A stretch of DNA of 28,213 bases from assembly GCA_964447205.1 (NCBI GenBank), contig CAYUSB010000004.1, positions 23,586 through 51,798 on the forward strand, given 5' to 3'. The DNA comes from an uncultured Myxococcaceae bacterium (GTDB lineage: Bacteria; Myxococcota_A; Polyangia; Polyangiales; Ga0077539). Shown piece after piece: positions 9,469 through 21,389 of the stretch. The number at the start of each line of letters is the position of its first letter. The stretch's first letter is position 1. The position numbers and the translations under genes were made by a program. The notes beneath the pieces are model-generated. The model was not told the DNA's origin, did no database searches, and saw only the letters and a list, made by a program, of their open reading frames with translations.

Positions 9469-9528
9469 GGGAGACGGGGCCAACGGCGACGAGGTGGGCT
9501 ATACCCTCCAGGGCGAGGACGGTGGACG

Positions 9529-10650
9529 ATGCGTGGCCCGCGATTGTGTGGAGCGTGTGGAGCCCGACCCGCGGTCGGTGACGCGGGGAAGGACTGCGCA
9601 TCGTGCGGTGCCCCTCCGACCGCCTGGGAGCTTGAGCAGGGGCAGGAGGGGTGGATCGCCCGCGTCACGATGTCGCTGGTGATGCTGGGGAGCGGGCTCG
9701 CGTGCTTCGCCGCGGTGCTCGCGCTTCTCAGCGGGTGGGCCTTCCCGTCCGTCGCGTGGAAGGTGGTGCAGGCGGTGCTGGGGCTCGTGGTCGTTCCGTT
9801 TGGGACGCTCACCGGGGCGGTGCTCGTCTACGGGTCGGTCGAGGGGCTGGTGATGACCACCTGGCGATGGAAAGACCCGGTCGACGGCGAGGGACAGGCG
9901 AGCGCCAAGGTCGTGCTCGGTCGGCTGAAGTCCGCGCAGGGGCGGAGGGCTCGGGTGGGTACCCCCCTCCCAGTGCCTGCGATGCGGGCTTCGCCGGTGG
10001 AGCTGTTTCGTTCGCTCAAGACCGTTCGCGCGGAGGCCTTGAAGCGCGCCTCGCTCGGCATCGGGACGCCGCCCACGGTCGATCTCCTCCTGGTGTTTGG
10101 GATCGTTCGGTTGGCGTACGCGGGCGTGATGGAGATCGCGGTCCGCGAGAGCCGAAGCTGGGACCTGAAAGGGGTCGGTGCGTGGTGTGCGAGTCCGTCC
10201 CCGTTGATGCTTCGGCGAGGGACGGCCCGACCGAGCGTCTCGCTCAACGATCCGGTGAGTGTGCTGCTCCTCGCCGCGCTCGCACAGTTTGATCTCGACG
10301 CCACCACGAAGGCGTCGGTGGTGGGCGAGGGTGCGTATCGGCGTGGAGCGCTGGGGGAGGAGCTTCCGCCAGGTCCGTGGGTTCGGCTGAGTGACCTCCT
10401 CGACGCCCTGGTCCCCCTGGTCTCGCTGCAAAACCCGAGGCAGTCGATCCGCGATCGGATGCGGCATCACGCCGAGATCGCGTCCGACAGCACCCTGTCC
10501 GACGAGGCGATTGTCGACGACGTGCGGGGCGTCGTGGCGTGGCGCGTCGCCGGCGAGACGCGGGCGATCGTGCCGTTGCTGCTCGCTTGTCTGACGCGGC
10601 TATCTCCGAGGTACAGGCCCCCGGGGGTTGCCAGGAAGGACATGAAGTGA
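9529..10650 (+). CDS. Hypothetical protein with N-terminal CxxC-x14-CxxC zinc ribbon and two TM helices
   Basis: LCGACGARP...CASCGAP zinc-ribbon spacing, followed by two hydrophobic helices and a ~260-aa soluble region. GC3-rich codon usage. The opposite-strand ORF 9499..10470 is Arg-rich junk. Confidence 0.5.
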   Translation: MRGPRLCGACGARPAVGDAGKDCASCGAPPTAWELEQGQEGWIARVTMSLVMLGSGLACFAAVLALLSGWAFPSVAWKVVQAVLGLVVVPFGTLTGAVLVYGSVEGLVMTTWRWKDPVDGEGQASAKVVLGRLKSAQGRRARVGTPLPVPAMRASPVELFRSLKTVRAEALKRASLGIGTPPTVDLLLVFGIVRLAYAGVMEIAVRESRSWDLKGVGAWCASPSPLMLRRGTARPSVSLNDPVSVLLLAALAQFDLDATTKASVVGEGAYRRGALGEELPPGPWVRLSDLLDALVPLVSLQNPRQSIRDRMRHHAEIASDSTLSDEAIVDDVRGVVAWRVAGETRAIVPLLLACLTRLSPRYRPPGVARKDMK

Positions 10651-10726
10651 AGTTTGCGGGTGGGGGCCATGTCGAGCGCCTCGGCGATGGACACGGTGTC
10701 GTCAGGGTGGGGAGGGAGCGGGGCGC

Positions 10727-11563
10727 TCAGCGGCGGCGCTCGAAGCGGAAGGTCACCGACCCGCCCGCGCAGAGGACGGTCTTGCTCCCCGCGGCGAGCT
10801 CCGCGGGGGTCGCGGTGAGTCGCCCGCGGCACACCACATCGCCCGCGCGCACGTTGGTGATGGGCGAGTCGTCGTCTTCCAGCACGAAGTCGAGGCCCGC
10901 GCCGAGGCGAGGCTCTTCGACGATGCCCACCTCGGCGTCGTAGGTCCCCTCGCAGCGGTTGCCCGCCGGCGCGGTGATCATCCCGTTGACCCGCACGAAG
11001 GGGTCGGGCAGCGACGGGGAGCAGAAGGGCTGACCGCCGTTGCGGCACGCATCCCACGAGGTGTCGCAGCGGTCGACGCGCGCTGAGGCCACCCGCAGGA
11101 GCCACAGCGGACCGGTGTACGGCGCCGGGTCGCAGCGCCCGAAGCCCTCGGCACAGACGAAGCCCGCGCCGCAGGTGCCGCACTCGACCACCCCGCACGC
11201 GTCGGAGCTCGCGATGCCGCACTGTCGTCCCGTGCAGAGCTCCTCGCACGCCGAGGGGCCGGTGTCGGGCGCGCCCGCGTCGGCGGGGGTGCGCGGCAGG
11301 AGCTCGCAGCGGGCTCGTCCGCCCCCGGGCCGCACGCACCGCGCGTCGTCGCCGCAGTCGTCGTCACGCGTGCAGAGGTCCTCGGGCTCGGGCTCGGGCG
11401 TTGCGCCGCCGTCGGCCTCCTCGGGGGGCTCTGCCGGGACGTGGGTGTCGGCGGTGGCGGCGCCCGCGTCGGCGCGGCGAGACTCGGGGAGCGTGTTGCC
11501 CACGTAGCAGGCAGACAGCGGGGCGAGGGCGGCGACGACGAGGAGCGAGGTGAGTACGCGCAT
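10727..11563 (-). CDS. Cys-rich secreted lipoprotein
   Basis: The ATG at 11563 (MRVLTSLLVVAALAPLSAC, lipobox LSAC) has GGAGG 8 nt upstream. The mature part has an acidic linker, then Cys-knot-like CTRDDDCGDDARC and CEELCTGRQCG..ACGVVECGTCGAGFVCAEGFGRC motifs. The track ORF start at 11767 is rejected. Confidence 0.65.
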   Translation of the reverse strand: MRVLTSLLVVAALAPLSACYVGNTLPESRRADAGAATADTHVPAEPPEEADGGATPEPEPEDLCTRDDDCGDDARCVRPGGGRARCELLPRTPADAGAPDTGPSACEELCTGRQCGIASSDACGVVECGTCGAGFVCAEGFGRCDPAPYTGPLWLLRVASARVDRCDTSWDACRNGGQPFCSPSLPDPFVRVNGMITAPAGNRCEGTYDAEVGIVEEPRLGAGLDFVLEDDDSPITNVRAGDVVCRGRLTATPAELAAGSKTVLCAGGSVTFRFERRR

Positions 11564-11782
11564 GGGGGACCTCCGTGAGAACGATCGCCCCTGTCGCAAG
11601 GTCTGGGCCGCCGTGAATAGGCTTGTTTTTATGGCACTTGTGCTGGTCTGAGCGGGGCGTCGGCGCGGCGGGCGGGGCGCGGGCGCCACGGTGTCGGTCG
11701 CGCGGTGCGGCGATCTCGCCGTCGTGTCATCGGAGCAAACTGGACGTCGCCCGCGGCGAGGCGCCACCCCGAGCGCCTTGTG

Positions 11783-12346
11783 TCAGAAGCTCCCGGCGAT
11801 GCCCACCCACGACCCCTGCGGCAGCGGCACGACGGCGGGCGAGAGACGGAACGACACGTGGGCCCGCGCGGGCGTGCGCGTCACGGTCCGTGGGGACATC
11901 CACACGGCGCCGACGGTGCCGCCCAGCAGGGTGGCCCCCAGCCCGAGGAGCAGGGAGGGCGTGCTGTAGTCGGACCGACTCGCCAGCGCTGCACCCAACG
12001 CGACGCCGGGCAACATGCCTACAAACGTGCCGAGCAGCGCGCGACCGTACGACACCGGAGCGCCGTAGCGTCGGCCCGCGAGGGTCACCCCGAGCGGCGT
12101 GCCAAACACGATGCCAACCCCGGCGCCCATCAAGCCGAAGGCGGCCGCGCTGATCTCGCCCGTCGAGGTGAGCGCGGGCGGCAGCCCCAGTGCTGTGGCC
12201 GCGAGGGCCCCCGTGGCGGCCCCCGACAGTCCCATCACCCACGGCTTGGCCTCCTCCACGGGTGGACCGATGCCCTGCGCGGATGCCCCAGCGGGAACGA
12301 GGGTCAACGCCACCGCCAGGCCTGCGACCCCCGCCGAGTGCCACAT
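11783..12346 (-). CDS. Gly/Ala-rich secreted protein, possibly a small outer-membrane beta-barrel
   Basis: ATG at 12346 (MWHSAGVAGLAVALTLVPAGASAQG signal peptide) with GGGAGA upstream. The protein is Gly/Ala-rich with alternating hydrophobics and a C-terminal aromatic residue (…GIAGSF). Confidence 0.5.
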   Translation of the reverse strand: MWHSAGVAGLAVALTLVPAGASAQGIGPPVEEAKPWVMGLSGAATGALAATALGLPPALTSTGEISAAAFGLMGAGVGIVFGTPLGVTLAGRRYGAPVSYGRALLGTFVGMLPGVALGAALASRSDYSTPSLLLGLGATLLGGTVGAVWMSPRTVTRTPARAHVSFRLSPAVVPLPQGSWVGIAGSF

Positions 12347-12453
12347 GGGAGAAGTCTCCCACAGCGCCGCGGAGGCTCGCAACGGTCGACGCGCTCTGCG
12401 GCGACCGCCGAGGCCGGCGCGCTCCGCGGGTCGTCCTGCTCGACTTCTGGCTC

Positions 12454-13131
12454 ATGAGCGGCCCAGGCGACGACGGCGTCGAGCCGGCAGGAACGCTCGC
12501 GAACATGGCCCCCGAGCCGACGAGCGGTCGTCCCAGCAGCGAGGCCGCGGACTGGTATGCGTTCGGCACCATGCTCTACGAAGCGCTCTCGGGTCGTCGG
12601 CTCTCCGAGGGGCCGTCGGACGAGGTTCGTCGCAAGAGAGTCGACGGAGAGCCTCCCCTGCCGCTGACAGACGTGGACGGCGACCTGGGTCGACTGTGTC
12701 ACGACCTGCTGCAGCACGCGTCCGCGCTGCGCCCTTCAGGTCCGGAGGTGCTCGCCCGCATGGCGTCGCGCCGCGGCGAAGACGAGCTCGTTGCGAGCTC
12801 CGTGCCCGCGTTGGACGAGGAGCACGCCGTCAAGCTCACAGGTCGCGACGCAGAGATCCAGCGGCTCGGTGACGCGCTGGAAGTCACGCGCGGCGGGCAC
12901 CCCTCCGTCGCCCTCGTCCACGGTCGATCGGGCGTGGGCAAGACCGCCCTCGTCGATCAACTCGTGAGGATGTTGGGCGATACCTCGCCGAGCCCGGGCG
13001 GGAGCCGGACCTTGTTCTTCCCTTGCCGGGATGGGCGGTGCATCACCCCGGCGGGCGACTCCTCCAACTGCGGCGGATGCGGCCTCGCCTGCCCGATGGG
13101 ACGGCTCTGTTCGGTGGGCCTCTGCGGCTGA
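12454..13131 (+). pseudogene. Remnant of a Ser/Thr protein kinase-AAA_16 (STAND-type) gene: kinase C-lobe + start of NTPase
   Basis: The frame encodes kinase subdomains VII-XI only (VLLDFW[G] with a degenerate DFG, then NMAPEP, DWYAFGTMLYEAL, LRPSG), then the first ~60 aa of an AAA_16-like P-loop NTPase (GRDAEIQRLGDAL...VHGRSGVGKTALVDQL). It then breaks into an unrelated Cys-rich tail (NCGGCGLACPMGRLCSVGLCG). The N-lobe is absent because upstream DNA is occupied by the minus-strand gene ending at 12346. Codon usage is relaxed (gga, cgt, aga, aca). Confidence 0.5.
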
Positions 13132-13160
13132 GGGTGTGCCCGCGGGGTCGAGGGTGCACC

Positions 13161-14222
13161 TCACCTGCGCGTGCGGACGCGCGTCACGACGACCGTCGCG
13201 CCGAGGGCGCGGGCCACGTGTTTCCCGTCGAGGCTCATCGCGAGGGGCCACCCTTCTGGCCACGGCGGTCGCGCCGTCGTTGCCGGGGGCGTCCAGCGCA
13301 GGCGCAGCACGCGGGGGAGACTGCTTGTGAGGCCCTGGCGAAGGAGTCCGAGCGGGGCGTCGCCGCCCCACGGCGGGAGGCGGCGCCACGTCACGCGCGG
13401 GGGGACACCCCCGAAGTGCACGGCGGACAGGGCTTCGCCCCGGGGCAGCGGGCGCGCGCGCTGGACCCCGGTCGCGAGGTCCACCATGGAGGTCGCGGCG
13501 GACTTGCCCGCGGTGACGACGACGAGGCGACCGCCGTCGGGCGTGAACGCCAGGCAGGCAGGGGGCCCCGATCCCCGCGTGGGCAGCGCAAGCCAGCGGA
13601 CATCGCCCGCCGCGGTGTCGATCACCCCGAGCGGCCGCGGTCCTCCCCGCACCACCGCGAGCCGCGTGCCGTCGTGGCTCCACACCTGGACCTCGGCGTC
13701 GACGTCGGCGAACGTCCGAAGCTCGACGCCGCGCGCCACGTCCCAGATCGTCGTGCCGCGCTCGGCCAGCGAGGTCGCGAGCCGTGTGCCGTCGGGGCTC
13801 AGGGCGAAGCGGCCGGTGCCGGAGGTGGTGTCCGGGTACCGCGCGAGGTCGGGCGCGAACAGGGTGTACGCGTGGACGCCCGCGTCGCGGACGAAGACCT
13901 CGATCCACCGGGCCCAGTCGTTCTGGGTCAGCCGGAGGTCAAACCCGGCGACGAGATGACGCCCGTCGCGCGTAAAGGCCACCGAGCGCGCCATCGTCGC
14001 GATGCCGTCGTCACGGCACTGCACCCGCAGCGCCGGCACGAGGGCGCTGGGGTACTCCTCGCGCCGCGCCCCCGAGCGCGGGTCGTACACGGCGATACGA
14101 TCCGCGAGCCCGACAGCGAGGCGCCGACCCGTGGCGTCGAACGCGAGGGCGCCGATCCCTCCGTCTCCCCACCCGTCGGTCGAGGCCCCGCCACCCGCAG
14201 CCTCTGGCACGTCGAACCGCAT
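13161..14222 (-). CDS. WD40/PD40-like beta-propeller repeat protein
   Basis: Five or more repeats of the L-A-F-[TS]-x-D-G-x-[RH]-L-[AV]-x type (LAFDATGRRLAVG, VAFTRDGRHLVAG, FALSPDGTRLATS, VWSHDGTRLAVV, LAFTPDGGRLVVV). No signal peptide. Confidence 0.75.
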   Translation of the reverse strand: MRFDVPEAAGGGASTDGWGDGGIGALAFDATGRRLAVGLADRIAVYDPRSGARREEYPSALVPALRVQCRDDGIATMARSVAFTRDGRHLVAGFDLRLTQNDWARWIEVFVRDAGVHAYTLFAPDLARYPDTTSGTGRFALSPDGTRLATSLAERGTTIWDVARGVELRTFADVDAEVQVWSHDGTRLAVVRGGPRPLGVIDTAAGDVRWLALPTRGSGPPACLAFTPDGGRLVVVTAGKSAATSMVDLATGVQRARPLPRGEALSAVHFGGVPPRVTWRRLPPWGGDAPLGLLRQGLTSSLPRVLRLRWTPPATTARPPWPEGWPLAMSLDGKHVARALGATVVVTRVRTRR

Positions 14223-14262
14223 CGCGCCCCAACGGGTACCACGTCCGGGAGCACGGCGAGGA

Positions 14263-14529
14263 TCACCCGTGTCGGCCCTTCACCGTGGCGATGGTGAGCA
14301 CCAGCAGGAGGGTCACGAAGTTGGCGCCCACGATGGCGCTGTCGCGGCGGAGCAGCCCGTATCCCAGCCACAGGGCGATGCCCACCGCCAGCATCGTCAG
14401 GGAGGACCACGAGAAGTCCTTCGCGCTGCGCGACTGCACGGTCTTCCAGGCTTGCGGCACCCATGCGCCGGTGGTGACGGTGGCGGCGACAAACCCGAGG
14501 GACAACACGAGGGACTCGCTGGTGTGCAT
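14263..14529 (-). CDS. SemiSWEET/PQ-loop-like 3-TM mini-membrane protein
   Basis: The 88-aa product from the ATG at 14529 has three hydrophobic helices and a PQ motif in helix 1 (GAWVPQAWKT). Its size and topology are typical of bacterial SemiSWEET/PQ-loop proteins. It ends 40 nt upstream of the WD40 gene on the same strand. Confidence 0.55.
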   Translation of the reverse strand: MHTSESLVLSLGFVAATVTTGAWVPQAWKTVQSRSAKDFSWSSLTMLAVGIALWLGYGLLRRDSAIVGANFVTLLLVLTIATVKGRHG

Positions 14530-14598
14530 GGCAGAGGGCGGGTGTAGCACTCTCCCGCCAGAGGTCATTGGGGCCCTGTCGGGACAGACGAGAGATCC

Positions 14599-14904
14599 TC
14601 AGGGGCTCTTCCCGCGCGCCTTCGCGTGCGCGCGCCGCACGATGAACCACACGACCCAGAGGGCCACGGACGCCACGATCCACGGCCCCGAGCGCAGGGC
14701 CACCGCGTGCCACACCGCGAACCAGAAGAGTGCCGCGACCGCGACGCGCAGCACGAAGCGCCTGAAGTCCGCCGGGCCGCTCGCGTCGTTCGGAGGCGAG
14801 GCGGGCCCGGTCGGCGCGGCCCCCACCCCCCCGCCCACGCCCTCGCTCCGCGGGGGCGGGGGCCGGGGGGTGGGGGCCGCGCCATCCGTCTCCCGCCGCA
14901 ACAA
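14599..14904 (-). CDS. Small hypothetical protein with 2 C-terminal TM helices
   Basis: 101-aa ORF with a Pro/Gly-rich N-terminus, two hydrophobic helices (FVLRVAVAALFWFAVWHAVAL, WIVASVALWVVWFIV) and a basic tail. Strongly GC3-biased codons. Overlapping ORFs in other frames look like junk. Confidence 0.4.
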   Translation of the reverse strand: MLRRETDGAAPTPRPPPPRSEGVGGGVGAAPTGPASPPNDASGPADFRRFVLRVAVAALFWFAVWHAVALRSGPWIVASVALWVVWFIVRRAHAKARGKSP

Positions 14905-14943
14905 CGGACTCCAACCCCGTGAACGGTTACGGGAGGGTCGTGA

Positions 14944-15827
14944 TCAGTGTGGGTCGGCCGACTTGGGCGGCGTCACGGCCAGCACCTCGTCGGCGTTCGC
15001 GGCGGTCACGGCGGCCATCAGCCAGGCGTCGAGCTGCGGCATCGCCGTGGTGGCTTCGATCTGCGTGCGTTGGGCTTCGGTGAGGGTGATGCCCCGCGCG
15101 CCGAGGAGGGCGAAGATGGAGTGACGCACGCCCATGCGCTCGCCCTCAAGCTTGCCCTCGCGTTTGCCCTCGCGCATGCCCTCAAGCTTGCCGTCGCGCT
15201 CTGCCTCTGCGCGGACCTCGTCGCCAGCCTCGGGCAGGATCCTGAGGAGCTTTCGGGTCATCTCGGTCTTGAGGCGACGCTGGGCCTCTTCGTCCCGGTA
15301 GAGGGCAGCGTACTTTTCGGTGCTCTCCTGGTCCGGGGAGGTGTTGTACCACGTGGAAGACCCAGGCGGGGCCCTTGACCTCCACGGCCCAGTCCAGAAA
15401 CTCGGCCAGCGCGGCCCCCGATCGGGCGACGAGAAAGGGCAGGAGCTCGATCTCCAGGGGCAGGGCGTTGGCCGCGATCCACAGCAGGTCGAAGGGGCGC
15501 AGGCCCAGTTGCCAGATGCCGGGCCCGAGCGGGCGGAGGGTGAGCAGACCCGCCGCGTCGTCGTCGGTGACCCAGCGAGGGAGGGCGGCCGACACGATCC
15601 GACAGGCGTAGTCGCGGGCGTCGTGGGTCGCCGGGGGCTTTTCGGGCGCGTCGCGGGCCTGCTCCAACTGGCGGGTGAAGCGTGCCTGACGGCGCAGCTC
15701 GGCCCGGGCGAGGGCGGGGCGGTCGGTGTGATCGCCCGGCATCTTGAGCTCTGTCGTCGCATCGAGGCGCAACCGACGCCACGGCAGCGGCAGGTGGACA
15801 AGCCCTGGCGCGTCGAGCACGCGCATC
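14944..15827 (-). pseudogene. Rpn/YhgA-like (DUF4351 C-terminal) gene, frameshifted and lacking a recognisable N-terminal PD-(D/E)XK nuclease domain
   Basis: The C-terminal frame (track ORF 14944..15801) ends with ...ERDGKLEGMREGKREGKLEGERMG..ALLGARGITLTEAQRTQIEA...LDAWL. This is very similar to the EG-repeat plus DUF4351 tail of E. coli RpnA-E/YhgA-like proteins. The upstream frame (track ORF 15182..16933, region from MRVLD at 15827) continues the protein. The two frames join only through a 1-nt frameshift near 15349-15354 (..KGPAW / YNTSPDQ..). Confidence 0.5.
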
Positions 15828-15839
15828 ACCCCGTCCGGC

Positions 15840-16003
15840 GCTAGAGCGCCGACCGGAAAGTCTCCCGTCGCCGCGCTTCCGATCCGCGTCGCCTCGCTGC
15901 GTTGCGGTGTCTCGACGGGCATTGAGCCCGTCTTCGCCCCCGCGCCTGGCGACGCTTGCGTCTCGTTGCGCAGCTCGGTCCGACTTTCCGGTCGGCGCTC
16001 TAG
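15840..16003. repeat. Perfect 22-bp inverted repeat pair (ctagagcgccgaccggaaagtc at 15840-15861, reverse complement at 15982-16003) enclosing 120 bp
   Basis: Direct reading: the two arms are exact reverse complements and the match stops abruptly at both ends. The structure sits 13 nt upstream of the Rpn-like ATG at 15827. Confidence 0.8.
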
Positions 16004-16242
16004 AAACCCCACCGGGACCTCCACCGGAACCTCGAACGCCACGCACGACCCCGACGACACGGCGGTCTCCGAGGCCATCACCTCCTTCGCGATCTGATCC
16101 GCTTGACCCATCGAGGGATGCGCGCGCTCAGCCCGCGGTTCCGCCCCTGTCAACCGCAGCCAGTGGGACCGCGGCGCTTCGTCTTTGGACACCGTCGGAG
16201 CCCCCCCTTGTGTGCGGCCGCGGTTGTGGTCCACTCGACGCC

Positions 16243-16810
16243 ATGCGAACGCACGCGTGTGTCTCCCTCGTGGCGCTGGTGCTTGCGGCGGCATCGCCTG
16301 CCGCTGCGGAGTGCGACCCGACCGTGATCGCCGGTCTCCTCGCCCGCGCCGAACGTGCCGAACGCCAGCACGCCCTGGGTCGGGCCATGGCGATTCGTAC
16401 CGACCTGCTGGCGTGTTCGTCGGGCCCGCACGCGGCCTCCAACCGCGCGGCCTTGTCGCAGGCGTACGCCTCGTTGGGCGACTACGCCCGCGCCGCCGAC
16501 CTCGCTGGTGGCCACCGAGTGCGGACGCGTCCCCCTGCCTCCTCCGGAGGGGGCGACCCGGGAGGCCTTCGATCGGTGGGTGGTCGATGTCCTGACGCCC
16601 TGGGTTCAGTATCGCGCGCAGTGTCTTGAGGTCGCCGATCGGCACTTCACGGAGGTGATCGGGCTGGAAGTCGTGCAGTGGCAGATCGCCGCCGCCGCGC
16701 GCCTTGCCGAGGAGAATTGGTTTTTCGCGCAGGCCATTCGTACGTCGCCCGTGCCCCCGGACGTGCGTCGTAACCCCGACCTGGTGGACGCTTGGAACCT
16801 GATGAAGTGA
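16243..16810 (+). CDS. Secreted helical-repeat (TPR-like) protein interrupted by a +1 frameshift near 16520-16555
   Basis: The ATG at 16243 gives signal peptide MRTHACVSLVALVLAAASPAAAE, then helical ..ALSQAYASLGDYARAADLA. That frame soon degenerates into Arg/Gly junk. The adjacent frame (track ORF 16355, tail) reads through ..PPPEGATREAFDRWVVDVLTPWVQYRAQCLEVADRHFTEV..AAARLAEENWFFAQAIRTSP..LMK to a stop at 16810. The junction lies in a ccccc / ggggg homopolymer region. Confidence 0.45.
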
Positions 16811-16913
16811 ACGCGCCCTCCTGGAGCGGCTACGCCAGCGAGCCGGAGTACCGGTCCAGACCCCTCCGCCTCCTGAAGCCTCTCGCAGCGCAGCCACGTC
16901 GGGCTCGTCCGGG

Positions 16914-17540
16914 TCAGTTGGAGACGCCCGCATCGACCACGCCCGCCTGGAGCCCCGCGGCCCGTACGATGGCCCCGACCGCTTCGGCGACCGCCCGACG
17001 CAGCGACGGATCGGGGGCGTCGACGCGGACCACGACGTTCATGGCCCCGACGGGGATGGGGTCGACCGGGTCGAGGCCGGGCCACGGGCCTTCGTAGAAG
17101 AAGAGGTCGAGTCGGAGCCCGTGGGGCGGGTCGAGCACCTCCCGCGTCGGGGCCGCCGCGGTGTACGGAACCTGCGGGTCGTACCCGGGGTTGTGCACCA
17201 CCCGGCCGCCGTGCTGGTGGCTCCAGCGCATGCCGAGCTCGGGGCGCTCCTCGATGGTTAACACCCGACGGCCCGCATCCGCCAACGACGGAAACCTCGC
17301 CCCGAGCCCCACCACCTCGGCCACGATGCGGCGGGCGAGGGGGACGTACACCCGATGACGCGGCCCCCAACGCGCGCCCATCGGCGGCACCGCGACCTCA
17401 CCGCCCGAGACGAGGTTGGGCATGATCTCCGGCAGACGCGGCGGGGACGAGTCCGCGACGACCGCGGCAGGGGGGGACGGGCGTGCACATCCGCCCACGA
17501 GGCCGAGGAGCGCAACGACCCTGACGATGCCTGCACCCAT
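16914..17540 (-). CDS. Hypothetical lipoprotein
   Basis: The ATG at 17540 gives MGAGIVRVVALLGLVGGC with lipobox LVGGC, followed by a ~190-aa soluble domain of unknown family. Confidence 0.55.
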   Translation of the reverse strand: MGAGIVRVVALLGLVGGCARPSPPAAVVADSSPPRLPEIMPNLVSGGEVAVPPMGARWGPRHRVYVPLARRIVAEVVGLGARFPSLADAGRRVLTIEERPELGMRWSHQHGGRVVHNPGYDPQVPYTAAAPTREVLDPPHGLRLDLFFYEGPWPGLDPVDPIPVGAMNVVVRVDAPDPSLRRAVAEAVGAIVRAAGLQAGVVDAGVSN

Positions 17541-17632
17541 TCCCTGTGGACTGAACGAACCCACCCCGCGCGTCAAGGCGACCTCGGAGACACTCCGGGG
17601 CGCCCGCGCATGACGTTCGCGGCTGCGTTAGA

Positions 17633-19444
17633 ATGGCGGCCATGCTGATCCTGCGGCTCGGGATGCTCATGCTGCTGCTCCTCGGGATCGGGTGCAGCCG
17701 GGGCGACGAGGGGACCCTTCTCGGCGACCCCTGGACCGAGTACGACGCGAGCCTCTGGGACGACGACGACCCCTTTCCCCAGCCGCCCATCGGGGGCGAG
17801 GACGAGTCGCCCTTTCCCCCCGACCCCGACGCCCAGGTCCCCGAGCCCCCCGAGGGCGAGCCCTGGCCCGACGACGCCGGCGAACCCCCACCCCCGCCCG
17901 ACCCCGGCTCCGAACCCGAGCCCGACGCAGGCCCCGACCCGGGCGACGCAGGGGTCGTTCTGCCCCCGCAGGACGGCGGCCCGCCTCCGCCTCCGCCCGC
18001 CAACTGTCGCACCATGGCCGGGCCCCTCACGTGGTCGTGCAACGGGCCCATCCAGGGCCAGCACTGCGTGGCCATCACCGAGCCCCTCGACCCGCACGGG
18101 TGGGCCGACAACCACCTCTGCAGCGCCATCGAGATGGGCCTGCGGTGGTCGCACGCGGGCCCCGTCGCCGGGATGCGCTGCACCCCCATCACCGAACCCG
18201 CCGACCCCAACGGTTGGACCGACAACTTCCTTTGCCTCCCGAACGACAGCCCCTTCACCCTCCAGTGGAGCGTGGCCGGTCCCATCCCAGGCCGGGTCTG
18301 CCACGCCTGGGTCGAACCCTCCGACCCCCACACCTGGACCGACAACCACCTCTGCCTCTGGTACACCGAACCCATCGCCACCCCGCCCCCGCCGCCTCCG
18401 CCCACGGGCGAGCCTCCCCCGCGGTTTCAGGTGGTCTTCTCGCAGCGCCCTGAGGGCAACGGGCGCGACCCGACCCTCGAGTCCACCCTCCTGGAGATGA
18501 TCGGTCGGGCCCTCTCAGGCTCGCGGGTGCGGGTGGCCATGTACAACTTCACCCGGTCCAACGTGGCCCAGGCCCTCATCGCTGCCCACCGCCGCGGAGT
18601 CGACGTGCGGGTGGTGCTCGACGGCGACGCCCACCTCCTGGCCACCTCGGTCGTTCCCGCCCTGATCACGGGGCTGGGACGAAACCGGGTGACCTCGTGC
18701 GGGGCCCCGGGCACGGCCTGCCTCGGGACCGGGATCATGCACCACAAGACCTTCCTCTTCTCCGCCCTCAACGACGGGTCCCGGAGCGTGGTGGTTCAGA
18801 CCTCGCACAATCTCACGGCGGCACAGCTCCGGCGCCACAACGACGCCCTGATCATCCGCGGAGACAGCCGACTCTTCGCGGCCTACGAGCGCACCTTCGA
18901 GGACCAGCGCCGCGACATCGTTCGGTCCAACTACTATCGTATCCAGGACGGCCACTTCCGCACCCGGGCGTACTTCTTCCCGCGGCCCGCGGGCGACACC
19001 ATGGTGTCGATCGTCAACAACGTGGACTGTTCGGACGGGGGCCGCATCCGCGTGGCCATGGCCATCTTCGCCAACGCCCGCCTGGAGGTGGCCCGGGCCC
19101 TCGCAGGGCGCCAACAGGCAGGGTGCACCGTCGAGGCCGTGATCGGCAGCGCAGGCATCGCCCCGGGCCGGGACGTCCTCGCGACCCTGCGCGAGATGGG
19201 GGTCGGGGTGACCCTGTACCCCCTGCGGTCGGGGTGGGCCCTGCAGTCGAAGTACCTCCTCATCGACGCGCGCTACGCAGGCTCGACGGCCCCGCGGCGG
19301 CTGGTCTTTACGGGCTCGCACAACTGGTCGGGCCCCGCCCTGCGCACCAACGACGAGACCCTCCTGCGCATCGACAACGCCGGCGTCTACAACGCCTACC
19401 TCTCCAACTGGAACGCTGTCCGCTCCTCCGCCACCCGCCCCTGA
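17633..19444 (+). CDS. Phospholipase D-superfamily (HKD) lipoprotein with N-terminal triple Cys/Trp repeat
   Basis: Lipobox LLLGIGC is followed by an acidic Pro-rich linker, then three tandem ~38-aa repeats (W-S-x-x-G-P-x-x-G-x-x-C-x-x-I/V-x-E-P-x-D-P-x-G/T-W-x-D-N-x-L-C). A poly-Pro linker leads to a PLD-like domain with a first HKD-like motif HHKTFLF...SHN. The second motif is QSKYLLID...GSHNWS, with Gln where the catalytic His should be. Confidence 0.8.
   Translation: MAAMLILRLGMLMLLLLGIGCSRGDEGTLLGDPWTEYDASLWDDDDPFPQPPIGGEDESPFPPDPDAQVPEPPEGEPWPDDAGEPPPPPDPGSEPEPDAGPDPGDAGVVLPPQDGGPPPPPPANCRTMAGPLTWSCNGPIQGQHCVAITEPLDPHGWADNHLCSAIEMGLRWSHAGPVAGMRCTPITEPADPNGWTDNFLCLPNDSPFTLQWSVAGPIPGRVCHAWVEPSDPHTWTDNHLCLWYTEPIATPPPPPPPTGEPPPRFQVVFSQRPEGNGRDPTLESTLLEMIGRALSGSRVRVAMYNFTRSNVAQALIAAHRRGVDVRVVLDGDAHLLATSVVPALITGLGRNRVTSCGAPGTACLGTGIMHHKTFLFSALNDGSRSVVVQTSHNLTAAQLRRHNDALIIRGDSRLFAAYERTFEDQRRDIVRSNYYRIQDGHFRTRAYFFPRPAGDTMVSIVNNVDCSDGGRIRVAMAIFANARLEVARALAGRQQAGCTVEAVIGSAGIAPGRDVLATLREMGVGVTLYPLRSGWALQSKYLLIDARYAGSTAPRRLVFTGSHNWSGPALRTNDETLLRIDNAGVYNAYLSNWNAVRSSATRP
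18027..18374. repeat. Three tandem ~114-120-nt coding repeats
   Basis: DNA and protein repeat units at 18027-18140, 18141-18260 and 18261-18374. Confidence 0.7.
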
Positions 19445-19457
19445 CGGACCCTGCGGG

Positions 19458-20717
19458 CTACAGGGCGGCGCGGTCGAGGTCGAAGAGGGACAGGACGGTT
19501 TTGGTCCCGCGGGCGTCCTTCTTCCAGAGCAGGGCGAGGGTGTCGCCCGCCGCGGAGAGCCCGATGATCCGCGGGGCCCGGTAGGTGCAACACTGGGGGT
19601 CGTCGGCGAGGAGGGTCCGCACGATCTCGGGGCCCGCGTCGCGCCAGAGAAACACGGCGACCCCGTCGGTGATGGCCAGGTCGTCGTGACCGATGCGGGC
19701 GGCCAGGGAGGTCTCCCACAGGAGCTCGTGCTCGAAGCTCCGCATCCCGACCGTCGGGGGCGGAGGCACGCTCTGGCTGTGGGTGTGCCGCGCCGAGCGG
19801 TCGTTGTGGTCGTGGCCGTCGGAGGCGACGCGGGCGATCAGGCCGTCGAGGAAGTCCTGGTCCCAACGGGTGCGGGCCCGGGCCCGGAGAGAGGCGGCCC
19901 GACGCTGCCGGGCGTCGCCCGCCGAGGCGAGGGACACCGCGGGGCCCGGGCCCACCCGAAACCCGTACCGCGGGGCCCCGGCCACCCACATCCCCCGAGG
20001 GGCGGGCGCGAGGGCCAACCCGAAGGGCCAGCGGAGGTGCCCGGACGGAGCCTCGGCCCCTGGCTCGAACCACGACAGGCCGGCGATGAGGCCCGGGTCG
20101 GCGCAGAGCACGTAGAGGGTCCCGTCGTCGCCGAAGGCGTGGGCGTACTGGTCGACGTCGAGGGGCTCGAACCACTGCTCGCGTACGGCCCCGTCGGGCA
20201 GGGCGATGTGCATGAGGGCGCTGCGCTCACCGCTGCCGCAGACCCGCACCACGAGGCCCGACCCGTCCCGGGAGAAGGCCAGGGTCGAGGCCGCCCGCGC
20301 CTGAGCGTTGCGGGTCACGGCCCCGTACTCCGACACCCTGGCCCGGAGGGGGTCGGTCGTGAGGTCGCGGGGGCCGACGTGGATGACCCCGCGGCGCTCC
20401 TGCTCCTCCCACACGAGCTCGGCCACGGCCCACTGTTGGCCGTCCGCCGACCAGGTGACGTGTTGCAGGGGCCTGCGATCGGCGGCGGGCATGGCCACCG
20501 CGGTGGCCCCGTCAGCGAGGGACACGAAGTCGAGCTGTTGTCGGCTCCAGGGTCCGTGCAGGATGGCCGCCGTGGCCCCGTCGGGGGCGAGGGCCACCTC
20601 CCCGCCGTGGGCGATGTCGAGGTTGCTCCGCAGCCGGGCCGCGGGATGCAGGTCGAAGGGGACCTTGGGGCGGGGGGCCATCGGGCCGGGAGGGTACCAT
20701 GGCCCCCGTGGGCGCAT
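19458..20717 (-). CDS. Cytoplasmic beta-propeller-like hypothetical protein, start uncertain
   Basis: Only the C-terminal ~410 codons of the 579-aa track ORF are protein-like (LAFSRDGSGLVVRV, TLYVLCADPG blade-like segments, a DGHDHND His/Asp cluster). The N-terminal part is antisense junk over the next gene. Candidate starts are 20678, 20717 and 20760. The stop lies 14 nt after the convergent PLD stop. Confidence 0.55.
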   Translation of the reverse strand: MRPRGPWYPPGPMAPRPKVPFDLHPAARLRSNLDIAHGGEVALAPDGATAAILHGPWSRQQLDFVSLADGATAVAMPAADRRPLQHVTWSADGQQWAVAELVWEEQERRGVIHVGPRDLTTDPLRARVSEYGAVTRNAQARAASTLAFSRDGSGLVVRVCGSGERSALMHIALPDGAVREQWFEPLDVDQYAHAFGDDGTLYVLCADPGLIAGLSWFEPGAEAPSGHLRWPFGLALAPAPRGMWVAGAPRYGFRVGPGPAVSLASAGDARQRRAASLRARARTRWDQDFLDGLIARVASDGHDHNDRSARHTHSQSVPPPPTVGMRSFEHELLWETSLAARIGHDDLAITDGVAVFLWRDAGPEIVRTLLADDPQCCTYRAPRIIGLSAAGDTLALLWKKDARGTKTVLSLFDLDRAAL

Positions 20718-20828: not shown

Positions 20829-21389
20829 ATGCGCACCCGCTTCGCCATCGCCGCCCGCACCCTGATCGTCAGCCTCGCCGCCCTGTCCTTCCAGGGATGC
20901 GCCCTCAGCCCCGACGAGGCCCTCGACTTCGGCGACGAGACCGTCGCACAGTCGGTGGCCTCCCGGCGTGAGCCCGGCCTCGACGTCACCGTACGCACCA
21001 CCATGGTCCCCACCGGAATCCCCACCTACGGGTACAACCCCCAAAGCCCCGTGATCACGGTGCAGCTCCGGGTGACCGACAGCACCCTGCGGCAGCGTCA
21101 CCCGCGCTTCGATGGGTTCGAGCGGCCCTTCGCCCTCGTGCCGGGGGCGGCGGGAGGGGGCGTGAGGTGGGTGAGGGTTCCGTTGGTGTTTCGGCACACC
21201 ACGCGGACGGGGTACTACGGCCAGACCCCGGTGGACGTGTACGAGCTCGGCCCGAGCCGCCTCGCCGACCTCGCCGACCTCGACAGGGTCGAGTCCCTCG
21301 GGGTGGCCGTCGGCCTCGACACCAACATCGGCACCCTCTGGGCCCAGGACCCGGGACAGAACTACCGCCCCGTTCCGCTCCCCCGCTGA
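20829..21389 (+). CDS. Hypothetical lipoprotein
   Basis: The ATG at 20829 gives MRTRFAIAARTLIVSLAALSFQGC, a signal peptide with Cys at the cleavage region. The product is 186 aa. Its stop TGA overlaps the next ATG (ATGA at 21387-21391). Confidence 0.55.
   Translation: MRTRFAIAARTLIVSLAALSFQGCALSPDEALDFGDETVAQSVASRREPGLDVTVRTTMVPTGIPTYGYNPQSPVITVQLRVTDSTLRQRHPRFDGFERPFALVPGAAGGGVRWVRVPLVFRHTTRTGYYGQTPVDVYELGPSRLADLADLDRVESLGVAVGLDTNIGTLWAQDPGQNYRPVPLPR

What the first reader, a model, noticed from the sequence alone, without database searches (positions are those of the whole stretch)
17633..19444. PLD-superfamily lipoprotein with a novel triple Cys/Trp repeat and a degenerate second HKD motif
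Three consecutive ~38-aa repeats (…W-S-x-x-G-P-x-x-G-x-x-C-x-x-I-x-E-P-x-D-P-x-G-W-x-D-N-x-L-C…) are each likely a disulfide-stabilised module. They precede the PLD-like domain and are flanked by poly-Pro/acidic linkers. I do not recognise this repeat as a named domain. In the catalytic domain the first HKD motif is present (HHKTFLF). The second has Gln in place of His (QSKYLLID..GSHNWS). This suggests an atypical, single-site or inactive PLD-like enzyme, or a pure binding protein. A surface-exposed lipoprotein with a binding-repeat array could be a predation or adhesion factor.
Basis: partly seen in the sequence, partly recalled or inferred. Interest (0 to 1): 0.55.

Follow-up and report, generated by a model that had tools for sequence, protein, structure and literature searches.

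The report
PLD lipoprotein with unnamed triple-repeat domain
This gene encodes a membrane-anchored, exported phosphodiesterase of the phospholipase D family that carries an uncatalogued three-repeat domain, shared with many secreted cell-wall-degrading enzymes and even with some animal proteins, and one of its two catalytic histidines is replaced by glutamine in this genome only.

Summary
ORF 17633-19444(+) encodes a 603-aa protein with a lipobox, an acidic Pro-rich linker, three ~38-aa Cys/Trp repeats, a Pro linker and a two-lobed PLDc_2 domain with H370-x-K and Q538-x-K.

Two corrections to the interpretation:
- Gln538 is not a family trait. All 97 other homologues, including the syntenic 79%-identical orthologue, have His. 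The change is one base (CAC to CAG) in a gene otherwise under purifying selection (dN/dS about 0.19). This copy is therefore either a recently crippled (possibly substrate-trapping) enzyme or carries a base-call error.

The substrate (nucleic acid or phospholipid) is unresolved. The nearest relatives are nucleases.

The parts
17633..19444 (+). Complete gene for a 603-aa lipoprotein PLD-superfamily phosphodiesterase (stop codon included)
   Evidence: ORF list; coding-type GC3 of 0.91; the same gene call in ENA contig L001; an identical protein P0006 in NCBI, ENA and Logan
17633..17695 (+). Lipoprotein signal peptide with lipobox L-G-I-G-C (aa 1-21; Cys21 is the predicted lipidated residue, and +2 is Ser)
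   Evidence: Read directly from the sequence; the lipobox pattern is found in 58 of 95 PLD-family homologues
17696..18004 (+). Acidic, Pro-rich, low-complexity tether (aa 22-124; pI 4.05; 32 Pro; 27 D+E against 1 K+R)
   Evidence: Composition; short Pro/Asp-codon DNA repeats; fastest synonymous divergence but dN/dS 0.18
18005..18361 (+). Three-repeat Cys/Trp all-beta domain (aa 125-243), an uncatalogued module and the core of the finding
   Evidence: Alignment A1 of 34 triplets, with 14 invariant columns; AF2 pLDDT 94.3 and pTM 0.87; 1,060 cluster representatives at E<=1e-3; no Pfam, NCBIfam or PDB match
18020..18121 (+). Repeat 1 (aa 130-163): W134, C145, E150, D153, W157, D159, N160, C163; plus the extra Cys pair C125/C136
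18134..18235 (+). Repeat 2 (aa 168-201): W172, C183, E188, D191, W195, D197, N198, C201
18254..18355 (+). Repeat 3 (aa 208-241): W212, C223, E228, D231, W235, D237, N238, C241
18362..18418 (+). Poly-Pro linker (aa 244-262, includes PPPPPPP)
18419..18922 (+). PLD N-terminal lobe (aa 263-430) with HKD1: H370-H-K372 ... S391-H-N393; conserved Cys pair C356/C363
   Evidence: PF13091 best stretch 287-423; conserved columns; AF2 pLDDT 96.9; Foldseek hits to PLD3, PLD4 and SpPLD
18740..18811 (+). HKD motif 1 (aa 370-393). By analogy, H370 is the predicted nucleophile.
   Evidence: the mechanistic roles come from PMC8004604
18923..19441 (+). PLD C-terminal lobe (aa 431-603) with HKD2; conserved Cys pair C466/C498
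   Evidence: Second PF13091 stretch
19244..19324 (+). HKD motif 2 (aa 538-564): Q538-S-K540-YLLI-D545 ... G561-S-H-N564
19244..19246 (+). Codon CAG (Gln538) at the position of the invariant second catalytic His. The orthologue has CAC.
   Evidence: Codon read; 97 of 97 homologues have His; the orthologue codon is CAC

Best explanation
The gene encodes an exported, lipid-anchored phosphodiesterase of the phospholipase D (HKD) superfamily. It is built as lipobox, then a ~100-aa acidic Pro-rich tether, then one three-repeat disulfide-bonded all-beta domain, then a Pro linker, then a two-lobed PLD catalytic domain.

Shown:
- The three repeats form a single ~118-aa domain that belongs to a large family with no curated annotation.
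- That family is a mobile extracellular module. In Myxococcota it usually sits, often as two tandem copies, C-terminal to peptidoglycan hydrolases (M23, GH25, VanY, Amidase_2, CHAP) and to proteases. It also exists as small secreted stand-alone proteins.
- It was recruited into only one small subclade of an otherwise module-less family of lipoprotein PLDs.

Inferred:
- The module is a targeting or binding domain. It probably offers three equivalent ligand sites, one per repeat, each formed by the near-invariant E, D-P, W, D-N cluster between the two Cys. These sites would hold the tethered enzyme on a polymeric target, most likely a glycan of a (prey) cell envelope or matrix.
- The strongly basic PLD domain (pI 10.6) cleaves phosphodiester bonds in an anionic substrate. 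Nucleic acid is slightly favoured over phospholipid.
- By analogy with other HKD enzymes, H370 forms the phospho-histidine intermediate, and the residue at 538 should be the general acid/base that resolves it. In this genome that residue is Gln through a single CAC-to-CAG change. If the base call is right, this copy should turn over very slowly or become trapped on its substrate, while the family as a whole is a normal two-His enzyme.
For: Architecture and export: (lipobox in 58 of 95 homologues), plus conserved Cys pairs in both the module and the PLD domain.

The triplet is one domain:
- Repeat counts per protein are 3 (165 proteins), 6 (59) and 9 (10).
- AF2 gives pLDDT 94.3 and pTM 0.87 for the triplet.
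- R1, R2 and R3 keep position-specific features across proteins.

The module is uncatalogued:
- No Pfam hit above cut-off; only 14-16-residue motif matches.
- No NCBIfam hit above cut-off.
- PDB sequence profile search gives E >= 1.6.
- No paper contains the motif strings.

The module is mobile and extracellular:
- 1,060 representatives at E <= 1e-3.
- Partner census: M23 x12, astacin, matrixin, CHAP, VanY, GH25, Amidase_2, GH5, S8, trypsin, ricin, C-type lectin, CUB, TSP1, Sushi.
- The catalytic domain is N-terminal and is followed by two triplets.
- Stand-alone forms have signal peptides.
- Only P0006-P0012 among about 98 PLD homologues carry the module.

PLD domain:
- PF13091 matches at 93.8 bits in two stretches.
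- The AF2 model has pLDDT 96.9.
- Foldseek finds PLD3 and PLD4 exonucleases and SpPLD at E about 1e-15 and TM about 0.7.
- The PLD profile matches NucT, Nuc and Zucchini at 1e-10 to 5e-13.
- The domain has a GS-type motif as in the nucleases (PMC8004604) and a pI of 10.6.

Gln538 is a singleton: 97 of 97 homologues have His, and the other deviations are conservative. The syntenic orthologue has CAC, and dN/dS is 0.18-0.20 in every region.

Consequence of losing the His: NucT H124N is inactive but still binds ssDNA at about 2 nM (PMC5714352). A Tdp1 general acid/base His mutant stabilises the covalent intermediate (PMC5349943). The roles of the first and second His are stated in PMC8004604.
Against: - No ligand of the module has been tested. 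The binding role rests on domain-architecture analogy.
- The module is essentially absent from phage endolysins, where wall-binding domains are common.
- Its partners also include proteases, a GH5, GH32/43 and animal-type domains, so peptidoglycan cannot be the only target, if it is a target at all.
- The substrate of the PLD domain is not determined. SpPLD, one of the closest folds, is described as a phospholipase.
- The Gln codon is supported only by assemblies that are identical over 12.3 kb, so they represent one population. A base-call or consensus error cannot be excluded.
- The AF2 coordinates could not be inspected, so the disulfide pairing, the three-fold symmetry and the clustering of the conserved E/D/W/D/N residues are all inferred from sequence and DSSP periodicity.
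Confidence: 0.6

Rival explanations
1. Gln538 is a sequencing or consensus error, or a minor allele fixed by the assembler. The real protein has His538 and is an ordinary active two-HKD enzyme, and the only unusual thing about it is the attached module.
For: The change is a single third-position base (CAC to CAG). All 97 homologues and the syntenic orthologue have His. The rest of the gene shows normal purifying selection and keeps every other conserved residue. The only other assembly carrying the gene is identical over 12,349 bases, so there is no independent confirmation.
Against: The identical protein is recorded from NCBI, ENA and Logan assemblies made with different pipelines. Substitution errors rarely survive a short-read consensus at normal coverage.
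Confidence: 0.22
2. The triple-repeat domain is a membrane- or lipid-binding beta-prism, like the MABP domain or the C-terminal domains of MACPF/perforin-like proteins, rather than a glycan binder. It would dock the PLD and the other enzymes onto target membranes, and the PLD would then act as a true phospholipase on prey lipids.
Confidence: 0.2
3. The protein is a pseudo-enzyme that has been turned into a pure binding or adhesion protein. The PLD domain would serve only as a non-catalytic substrate clamp.
For: The invariant His is replaced. His-to-amide mutants of PLD nucleases keep tight substrate binding (PMC5714352). Inactive PLD-fold proteins such as FAM83 exist and appear among the profile hits.
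Against: The change is unique to one sequence. Nothing else in the active site has drifted: K372, K540, D545, S/G-S-H-N and both Cys pairs are all kept. dN/dS in the C-terminal lobe (0.18) equals that of the rest of the gene. The orthologue 79% identical in the same locus is canonical. There has been no time for, and there is no sign of, neofunctionalisation.
Confidence: 0.08
4. The module is not a ligand-binding domain. It is a structural, secretion or sorting element, for example a rigid spacer, a chaperone-like pro-domain or an outer-membrane-vesicle cargo tag, shared by secreted proteins of Myxococcota.
For: It is found only in exported proteins and is flanked by linkers. It is absent from phage lysins. 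Its position varies: N-terminal to the PLD and a trypsin-like protease, C-terminal to M23 and other enzymes.
Against: Tandem duplication (3, 6 or 9 repeats), stand-alone secreted forms, co-occurrence with known lectins (ricin, C-type, DM9), and presence in cnidarians and a sponge with CUB, TSP1 and Sushi domains are all typical of binding modules, not of lineage-specific sorting signals. Near-invariant polar and aromatic residues repeated in each repeat indicate a functional site.
Confidence: 0.1

Closest known systems
Nuc (pKM101/Salmonella) and NucT (Helicobacter pylori) periplasmic or outer-membrane-associated PLD-family nucleases; Zucchini/MitoPLD
   Same: These are the best sequence relatives among solved structures (profile E 5e-13 to 1e-10). 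They share the PLDc_2 family, the HxK...GSxN motif of the 'GS' type and an extracytoplasmic location in bacteria. A His-to-Asn mutant is inactive yet still binds its substrate.
   Different: Nuc, NucT and Zucchini are single-HKD proteins of about 155-200 aa that dimerise. The window protein has both lobes in one chain (341 aa), scores far below the NucT equivalog cut-offs (36.7 against 297 bits), is lipid-anchored through a long tether and carries an extra domain.
PLD3/PLD4 (mammalian lysosomal 5' exonucleases) and SpPLD (Serratia plymuthica phospholipase D, PDB 7e0m)
   Same: These are the closest solved folds to the modelled catalytic domain (Foldseek E about 1e-15, TM about 0.7, probability 1.0). 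They are single-chain, two-HKD, PLDc_2-type enzymes, and they are secreted or luminal.
   Different: Identity is only 14-17%. Substrates differ among these neighbours (ssDNA/RNA against phospholipid), so the fold does not settle the substrate. None of them has the triple-repeat module or a lipobox.
Modular bacteriolytic enzymes with a separate cell-wall-targeting domain (lysostaphin or ALE-1 M23 plus SH3b; Cpl-1 GH25 plus choline-binding repeats) - recalled from general knowledge, not tested here
   Same: The module's most frequent context has the same layout: an N-terminal M23, GH25, VanY, Amidase_2 or CHAP catalytic domain followed by one or two C-terminal copies of a non-catalytic repeat domain.
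   Different: The module has no sequence or fold similarity to SH3b, LysM, PGRP or choline-binding repeats. It is absent from phage lysins. It also accompanies proteases, glycosidases, a PLD and animal-type domains.
Three-fold pseudo-symmetric beta-prism domains (MABP of MVB12; APCbeta of apicomplexan perforin-like proteins; C-terminal domain of Mpf2Ba1 and Plu-MACPF; PCSK9 C-terminal domain)
   Same: They are the top, mutually consistent, weak structural neighbours, with up to 103 of 119 residues superposed at 3.3-3.6 A. Like the module they are three repeats forming one all-beta domain, and they act as targeting domains of extracellular effectors.
Tdp1 SCAN1 (general acid/base His mutant) as a mechanistic precedent
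   Same: It is a PLD-superfamily enzyme in which loss of the second (general acid/base) His leaves the nucleophilic His able to form the covalent intermediate, which then accumulates (PMC5349943).
   Different: Tdp1 is a distant superfamily member that lacks the Asp of the HKD motif. The mutation there is to Arg, not Gln. No biochemical data exist for the window protein.

Membership tests
PLD superfamily, Pfam PLDc_2 (PF13091) | Profile match above the curated gathering score | tested here: met
   93.8 bits against a cut-off of 27, E=1e-26, two stretches
PLD superfamily, Pfam PLDc_2 (PF13091) | Bilobal alpha/beta fold with the two HKD motifs contributed by two homologous lobes | tested here: met
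   AF2 model pLDDT 96.9 and pTM 0.94; Foldseek probability 1.0 and TM about 0.7 to PLD3, PLD4, SpPLD, PssA and F13; the two halves align to each other motif to motif
PLD superfamily, Pfam PLDc_2 (PF13091) | First catalytic motif HxK(x)4D(x)6G[GS]xN | tested here: met
   H370-H-K372 and S391-H-N393 are present and conserved. The Asp position is Ser377 in the whole family, and there is an 8-residue insertion. So His, Lys and S-x-N are met and the Asp is not.
PLD superfamily, Pfam PLDc_2 (PF13091) | Second catalytic motif with its His | tested here: not met
   Q538-S-K540-YLLI-D545...G561-S-H-N564. Everything is present except the His. His is found in 97 of 97 homologues. The protein is therefore a family member by descent and fold, but this copy lacks one catalytic residue.
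NucT/Nuc nuclease equivalogs (NCBIfam NF010490-NF010493) | Score above the equivalog cut-off | tested here: not met
   Best score is 36.7 bits against a cut-off of 297. The protein is related but is not an equivalog.
Cardiolipin synthase ClsB / DISARM DrmC | Score above the curated cut-off; cytoplasmic or membrane context (Cls) or a defence-island context (DrmC) | tested here: not met
   ClsB E=0.08; DrmC 16.9 bits against 133; PADLOC DrmC E >= 5.5e-4. The neighbours are TCA-cycle and unrelated genes, and the protein is exported.
Bacterial lipoprotein | Signal peptide ending in a lipobox with an invariant Cys | tested here: met
   R8 lies in the n-region, followed by a hydrophobic core and L-G-I-G-C21. 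The pattern [LIVMFWSTAG]2-[LIVMFYSTAGCQ]-[AGS]-C is matched here and in 58 of 95 homologues. Lipidation itself cannot be tested here.
Ricin-type beta-trefoil lectin (three ~40-aa repeats) | Pfam Ricin_B_lectin or (QxW)3 match; 12-strand trefoil fold | tested here: not met
Cyanovirin-N family | Significant profile match | tested here: not met
   E=1.6, with domain E-values of 75
Cell-wall-binding domain of lytic enzymes (functional class) | Direct binding to peptidoglycan or another wall polymer | not testable with these tools
   There is only architectural evidence: 18 of 98 scanned representatives pair the module with M23, CHAP, VanY, GH25 or Amidase_2, with the catalytic domain N-terminal and the modules C-terminal.

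The most novel reading that the evidence does not exclude
The triple Cys/Trp repeat is a previously undescribed protein domain family and possibly a new fold variant (three-fold, disulfide-stapled, beta-prism-like). It would carry three Ca2+- or sugar-type sites and serve as a general extracellular targeting lectin. It is shared, at about 50% identity, between predatory or bacteriolytic bacteria (Myxococcota, Pseudoalteromonas, Oligoflexus) and early-branching animals (hydrozoan cnidarians, a sponge), which implies inter-kingdom transfer. In addition, the window gene would be a natural 'general-acid knockout' of an HKD enzyme that forms long-lived covalent adducts with its substrate.
Probability: 0.3. 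Interest if true: 0.7.

Novelty: new variant of a known kind. Interest (0 to 1): 0.5.

Why it matters
The catalytic half is an ordinary member of a well-known superfamily. The attached module is not ordinary. It is a confidently folding domain found in more than a thousand sequence clusters, with no entry in Pfam or NCBIfam, no solved relative and no mention in the searchable literature.

It marks a large set of secreted lytic enzymes in predatory Myxococcota and also turns up in cnidarian and sponge proteins. Identifying its ligand would explain how these predators aim wall hydrolases, proteases and this phosphodiesterase at their targets. It would also add a new building block for engineered lysins and give a name to hundreds of 'hypothetical' proteins.

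The His-to-Gln change is a useful caution. A striking active-site 'degeneracy' seen in one sequence turned out to be a singleton rather than a family trait. If real, it offers a natural substrate-trapping variant that could be used to capture the enzyme's unknown substrate.

Tried and rejected
- A named domain for the repeat was not found. Pfam on the whole protein and on 34 modules gave only 14-16-residue matches to Ig_GlcNase and TS_C, far below cut-off. NCBIfam gave weak Rv1419-lectin hits at E >= 1e-3 and a weak MXAN_5187 hit on the low-complexity region. The PDB sequence profile search returned cyanovirin at E=1.6. All were rejected as non-significant.
- A beta-trefoil was rejected because no trefoil appears among the neighbours.
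- A shifted second His was rejected by the alignment of the two halves and by the 98-sequence alignment.
- A pseudogene was rejected: the ORF is intact, dN/dS is about 0.19 throughout and all other conserved residues are kept.
- A defence-system PLD (DrmC) was rejected on score, context and export.
- An operon partner or immunity gene was not found. The gene sits between divergent and convergent unannotated genes in a housekeeping region, and only the downstream 407-aa gene is syntenic.
- A phage endolysin binding domain was rejected. There are no hits in 50,697 phage records, and the single IMG/VR locus is a module plus trypsin-like protease.
- The literature held no paper with the motif strings, and a myxobacterial PLD/predation search gave nothing specific.
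- Independent confirmation of the CAG codon failed, because the ENA contig is identical to the window.
- Promoter, terminator and Rfam scans found nothing.
- The DNA-level tandem-repeat search found only the low-complexity linkers, not the protein repeats.
Full report
1. THE OBSERVATION

The ORF 17633-19444 (+) is real. It is 603 aa, has the codon-position GC pattern of a genuine gene in this 72% GC genome (GC1 0.69, GC2 0.55, GC3 0.91), and an independent gene call in an ENA metagenome assembly uses the same start. An identical protein (P0006) is on record from NCBI, ENA and Logan assemblies.

The N-terminus MAAMLILRLGMLMLLLLGIG-C21 fits the lipoprotein lipobox pattern, and the same pattern is found in 58 of 95 homologues. 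After it come, in order:
- a very acidic, Pro-rich tether (aa 22-124; pI 4.05; 32 Pro);
- the three repeats (R1 130-163, R2 168-201, R3 208-241);
- a poly-Pro linker;
- a domain that matches Pfam PLDc_2 at E=1e-26 in two stretches.

The repeats are far more alike than chance allows. Pairwise scores are 110-117 against a shuffle mean of about 22 with sd about 5, so z is about 19-20. Each repeat has one Cys pair and two Trp. HKD1 is H370-H-K372...S391-H-N393. HKD2 is Q538-S-K540-YLLI-D545...G561-S-H-N564. Codon 538 is CAG. When the two halves are aligned, H370 lies opposite Q538 and K372 opposite K540, so no shifted His exists.

2. THE REPEATS ARE ONE DOMAIN FROM A LARGE UNCATALOGUED FAMILY

A search with the whole protein found two kinds of relatives. 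One kind comprises PLD homologues. The other comprises proteins that match only the repeat region but carry quite different catalytic domains: M23 peptidase, GH25 lysozyme, VanY, Rv2525c-like, Amidase_2, astacin and GH32/43.

In all of them the repeats come in sets of three. In an alignment of 34 triplets, 14 columns are invariant: six Cys, three Trp, three Asn, one Ser and one Gly. R1, R2 and R3 also keep position-specific features, such as the extra N-terminal Cys pair in R1 and the L-C-x-P-x-x-S-P-Y connector before R3. The triplet is therefore the ancestral unit.

AlphaFold2 folds the window's triplet (aa 125-243) with pLDDT 94.3 and pTM 0.87 as an all-beta domain with about three strands per repeat.

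The single-repeat consensus from 778 in-register copies is [FL]-x-W-S-x-A-G-P-I-x-G-x-x-C-[VT]-Q-[IW]-x-E-P-[AS]-D-P-H-T-W-x-D-N-Y-L-C. Besides the Cys pair and the Trp, Glu is 97% conserved, Asp 94%, Asp 96% and Asn about 100%. All of these residues are intact in all three repeats of the window protein.

No curated resource recognises the domain:
- Pfam-A gives only 14-16-residue sub-threshold motif matches.
- NCBIfam gives only weak Rv1419-lectin hits at E >= 1e-3.
- A profile search of PDB sequences gives nothing below E=1.6.
- No paper in the searchable library prints the motif.

The family is large. An exhaustive profile search of 1.84 billion cluster representatives found 1,060 proteins at E <= 1e-3, 809 at E <= 1e-10 and 431 at E <= 1e-30.

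A Pfam census of 98 multi-domain representatives gave these partners: M23 (12), astacin (3), matrixin (3), CARDB (3), ricin lectins (2+2), CHAP (2), VanY (2), and single cases of GH25, Amidase_2, GH5, subtilase, trypsin, PKD, NAGPA, Laminin_G_3, a galactose-oxidase domain, Vps62, DM9, C-type lectin, CUB, TSP1 and Sushi. In the lytic enzymes the catalytic domain is N-terminal and two triplets follow.

Many members are small stand-alone proteins of 140-200 aa with clear signal peptides.

In GTDB species genomes, 211 loci were confirmed. Among the 80 best, most are Myxococcota: Polyangiales, Polyangiaceae, Archangium, Corallococcus, Myxococcus, Pyxidicoccus, Vitiosangium, Minicystis, Haliangiales and Sandaracinaceae. 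The rest include Pseudoalteromonas luteoviolacea, rubra and umbrosa, some CPR MAGs and others.

The module also occurs in animals: Clytia hemisphaerica ('Cnidarian restricted protein', UniRef A0A7M5UL02), Hydractinia and the sponge Oscarella. It is essentially absent from phages.

3. THE CATALYTIC DOMAIN AND GLN538

The PLD domain (aa 263-603) is modelled at pLDDT 96.9. Its closest solved folds are the PLD3 and PLD4 5' exonucleases and the Serratia plymuthica PLD (7e0m), at E about 1e-15 and TM about 0.7, followed by PPK1, PssA and poxvirus F13. By profile-sequence comparison the nearest solved relatives are the nucleases NucT, Nuc and Zucchini. The scores lie far below the NucT equivalog cut-offs.

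The domain is strongly basic (pI 10.6). It has the 'GS'-type motif that PMC8004604 associates with the nuclease members and with SpPLD. It also has two conserved Cys pairs (C356/C363 and C466/C498), which fits an oxidising extracytoplasmic location.

In a MAFFT alignment of 98 homologous PLD domains, 68 columns are at least 90% conserved. The window protein deviates at only four of them. Three deviations are conservative and are also seen in other members (L289M, N404D, T566S). The fourth is H538Q, at a column where all 97 other sequences have His (motif scan).

The closest relative, P0007 (79% identity), lies in a syntenic locus (icd-mdh-sucCD...GHL10...PLD...409-aa gene...YscJ_FliF-Pkinase) and has CAC at that codon. 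Between the two orthologues, dN/dS is 0.18-0.20 in every region, including the C-terminal lobe.

So the Gln is a single-base, lineage-specific change in an otherwise well-maintained gene. It is not a property of an atypical family. The only other assembly carrying the gene is identical to the window over 12,349 bases, so the base call has no independent support.

4. HOW IT MOST LIKELY WORKS

Shown: an exported lipoprotein with a long acidic tether, one module of a promiscuous extracellular domain family, and a complete two-lobed HKD fold.

Inferred:
a. The module is a targeting or binding domain. The reasons are that it is shuffled among secreted enzymes, is tandemly duplicated, exists as stand-alone secreted proteins, co-occurs with known lectins, and occupies the place that wall-targeting domains occupy in lysostaphin-type and endolysin-type enzymes (that last comparison is from general knowledge).
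b. Its binding sites are the three repeated E / D-P / W / D-N clusters. This make-up is typical of Ca2+-dependent or direct sugar-binding sites, and it is reminiscent of the EPN/WND motifs of C-type lectins. That resemblance is recalled from memory and is only a lead.
c. The PLD domain cleaves phosphodiesters in an anionic polymer or lipid. I lean slightly towards nucleic acid, because the nearest sequence and fold relatives are nucleases, the motif is GS-type and the domain is basic. Phospholipid, or even wall teichoic acid, is not excluded.
d. By analogy with SpPLD, Streptomyces PLD and Tdp1, the N-lobe His (H370) is the nucleophile and the C-lobe residue is the general acid/base that resolves the phospho-histidine (PMC8004604). 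NucT H124N is inactive but still binds ssDNA at about 2 nM (PMC5714352). Loss of the general acid/base His in Tdp1 stabilises the covalent intermediate (PMC5349943). If Gln538 is real, this copy should therefore be a very slow, possibly self-trapping enzyme.

The biological setting is an inference from taxonomy and partner enzymes only: a surface- or vesicle-borne hydrolase of a predatory Polyangiales-type myxobacterium.

5. RIVALS

- A base-call error, so that the enzyme is ordinary and active (about 0.22).
- The module as a membrane-binding beta-prism, with the PLD as a true phospholipase (about 0.2).
- The module as a structural or sorting element (about 0.1).
- A neofunctionalised pseudo-enzyme or adhesin (about 0.08).
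- A decaying pseudogene is rejected, because the ORF is intact, dN/dS is about 0.19 and the other conserved residues are kept.

6. CONTEXT

The neighbours are housekeeping or unannotated genes: icd, mdh and sucCD upstream, a GHL10 protein, a WD40 protein, two small predicted lipoproteins, an AraC regulator, a YscJ/FliF-family lipoprotein, a Ser/Thr kinase and glyS. The gene lies between a divergent and a convergent gene and has no evident partner. No sigma-70-like promoter, intrinsic terminator or Rfam family was detected. PADLOC gives only weak generic PLD similarity.

7. NOVELTY AND VERDICT

The catalytic part is a new member of a known family. The fusion is a new variant of the familiar 'hydrolase plus targeting module' design. 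The module itself appears to be an undescribed domain family with no detectable solved relative, with the caveat that AFDB, InterPro and CATH could not be searched. The 'degenerate HKD' is a singleton of uncertain reality. Overall interest is moderate (0.5) and is carried by the module rather than by the active-site change.

Noticed in passing
P0315 and P0337 (Clytia hemisphaerica), P0372 (Hydractinia symbiolongicarpus, on a 37-Mb contig), P0186 (Oscarella pearsei, 2,505 aa), P0327 (EukProt): The triple-repeat module occurs in cnidarian and sponge proteins at about 50% identity to the bacterial copies. It appears as small secreted proteins with signal peptides and inside large multidomain proteins. 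Other representatives combine it with CUB, TSP1, Sushi, C-type lectin and DM9 domains. This suggests inter-kingdom transfer of the module.
   Followed up: partly
L049:1918-3723 (Pseudoalteromonas luteoviolacea CPMOR-1): A 601-aa protein has an unannotated N-terminal region, then one triplet whose third repeat has lost its last Cys (DNYLG), then what looks by eye like a C-terminal ricin-type lectin region (not scanned). Similar loci occur in P. rubra and P. umbrosa. The N-terminal part was not analysed.
   Followed up: no
L078:1420-3342 (Corallococcus exercitus SDU142 chromosome): A 640-aa secreted protein ends exactly with one triplet module after an N-terminal region that looks protease-like but was not scanned. 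This places the module in a cultivable, genetically tractable myxobacterial genus.
   Followed up: partly
P0353 (189 aa, NCBI/ENA, 3.2-Mb contig): One triplet module is followed by a Gly/Cys-containing segment, a hydrophobic helix and an Arg-rich tail (…GGCACRVEP…LLLLAGLGWIAGRRRRRAG). This resembles a MYXO-CTERM-type surface sorting signal, so some module proteins may be anchored to the cell surface at their C-terminus.
   Followed up: no
L083:3854-5167 (IMG/VR UViG_2833787475_000001, 62.9-kb contig): This is the only 'viral' hit. It is a 437-aa protein with a signal peptide, an N-terminal triplet, a trypsin-like serine protease (TAAHC...GDSGGP) and a Cys-rich tail. It looks eukaryote-like or giant-virus-like rather than phage-like.
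   Followed up: no
window 9500-17600 compared with L082 8828-10000: The window and the orthologous locus L082 are syntenic on both sides. Between the GHL10 gene and the PLD gene, however, the window has about 8.2 kb (including a WD40-repeat gene at 13161-14222(-) and several unannotated high-GC ORFs), whereas L082 has about 1.2 kb with a single 328-aa gene. This is an insertion or deletion of unknown content.
   Followed up: no
window 16914-17576 (-), 20829-21389 (+) and 19458-20681 (-): Two small predicted lipoproteins (…LLGLVGGC… and …LAALSFQGC…) and a 407-aa protein flank the PLD gene. None has a Pfam match. A similar-sized (409-aa), likewise unannotated gene occupies the same position and orientation next to the PLD gene in L082; its sequence was not compared.
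   Followed up: partly
window 17696-17800 (aa 22-56) and homologues P0007, P0013, P0014, P0020: Just after the lipobox Cys, many family members share a short acidic motif (D-P-W-[TA]-E-x-D…G-G-P-Y-P-D-D or W-D-D-D-D-P) within the otherwise low-complexity tether. Its role is unknown.
   Followed up: no
window 17633-18409 (aa 3-259): There is a weak NCBIfam hit to 'MXAN_5187 family protein' (E=0.0017, 18 bits against a cut-off of 200) spanning the signal peptide, tether and repeats. It is probably driven by the Pro-rich and acidic low-complexity sequence and was not examined further.
   Followed up: no
P0234 (215 aa, Logan): A stand-alone triplet is fused to a C-terminal hevein-type chitin-binding domain (PF00187). 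This is one more case of the module being paired with a known carbohydrate binder.
   Followed up: no
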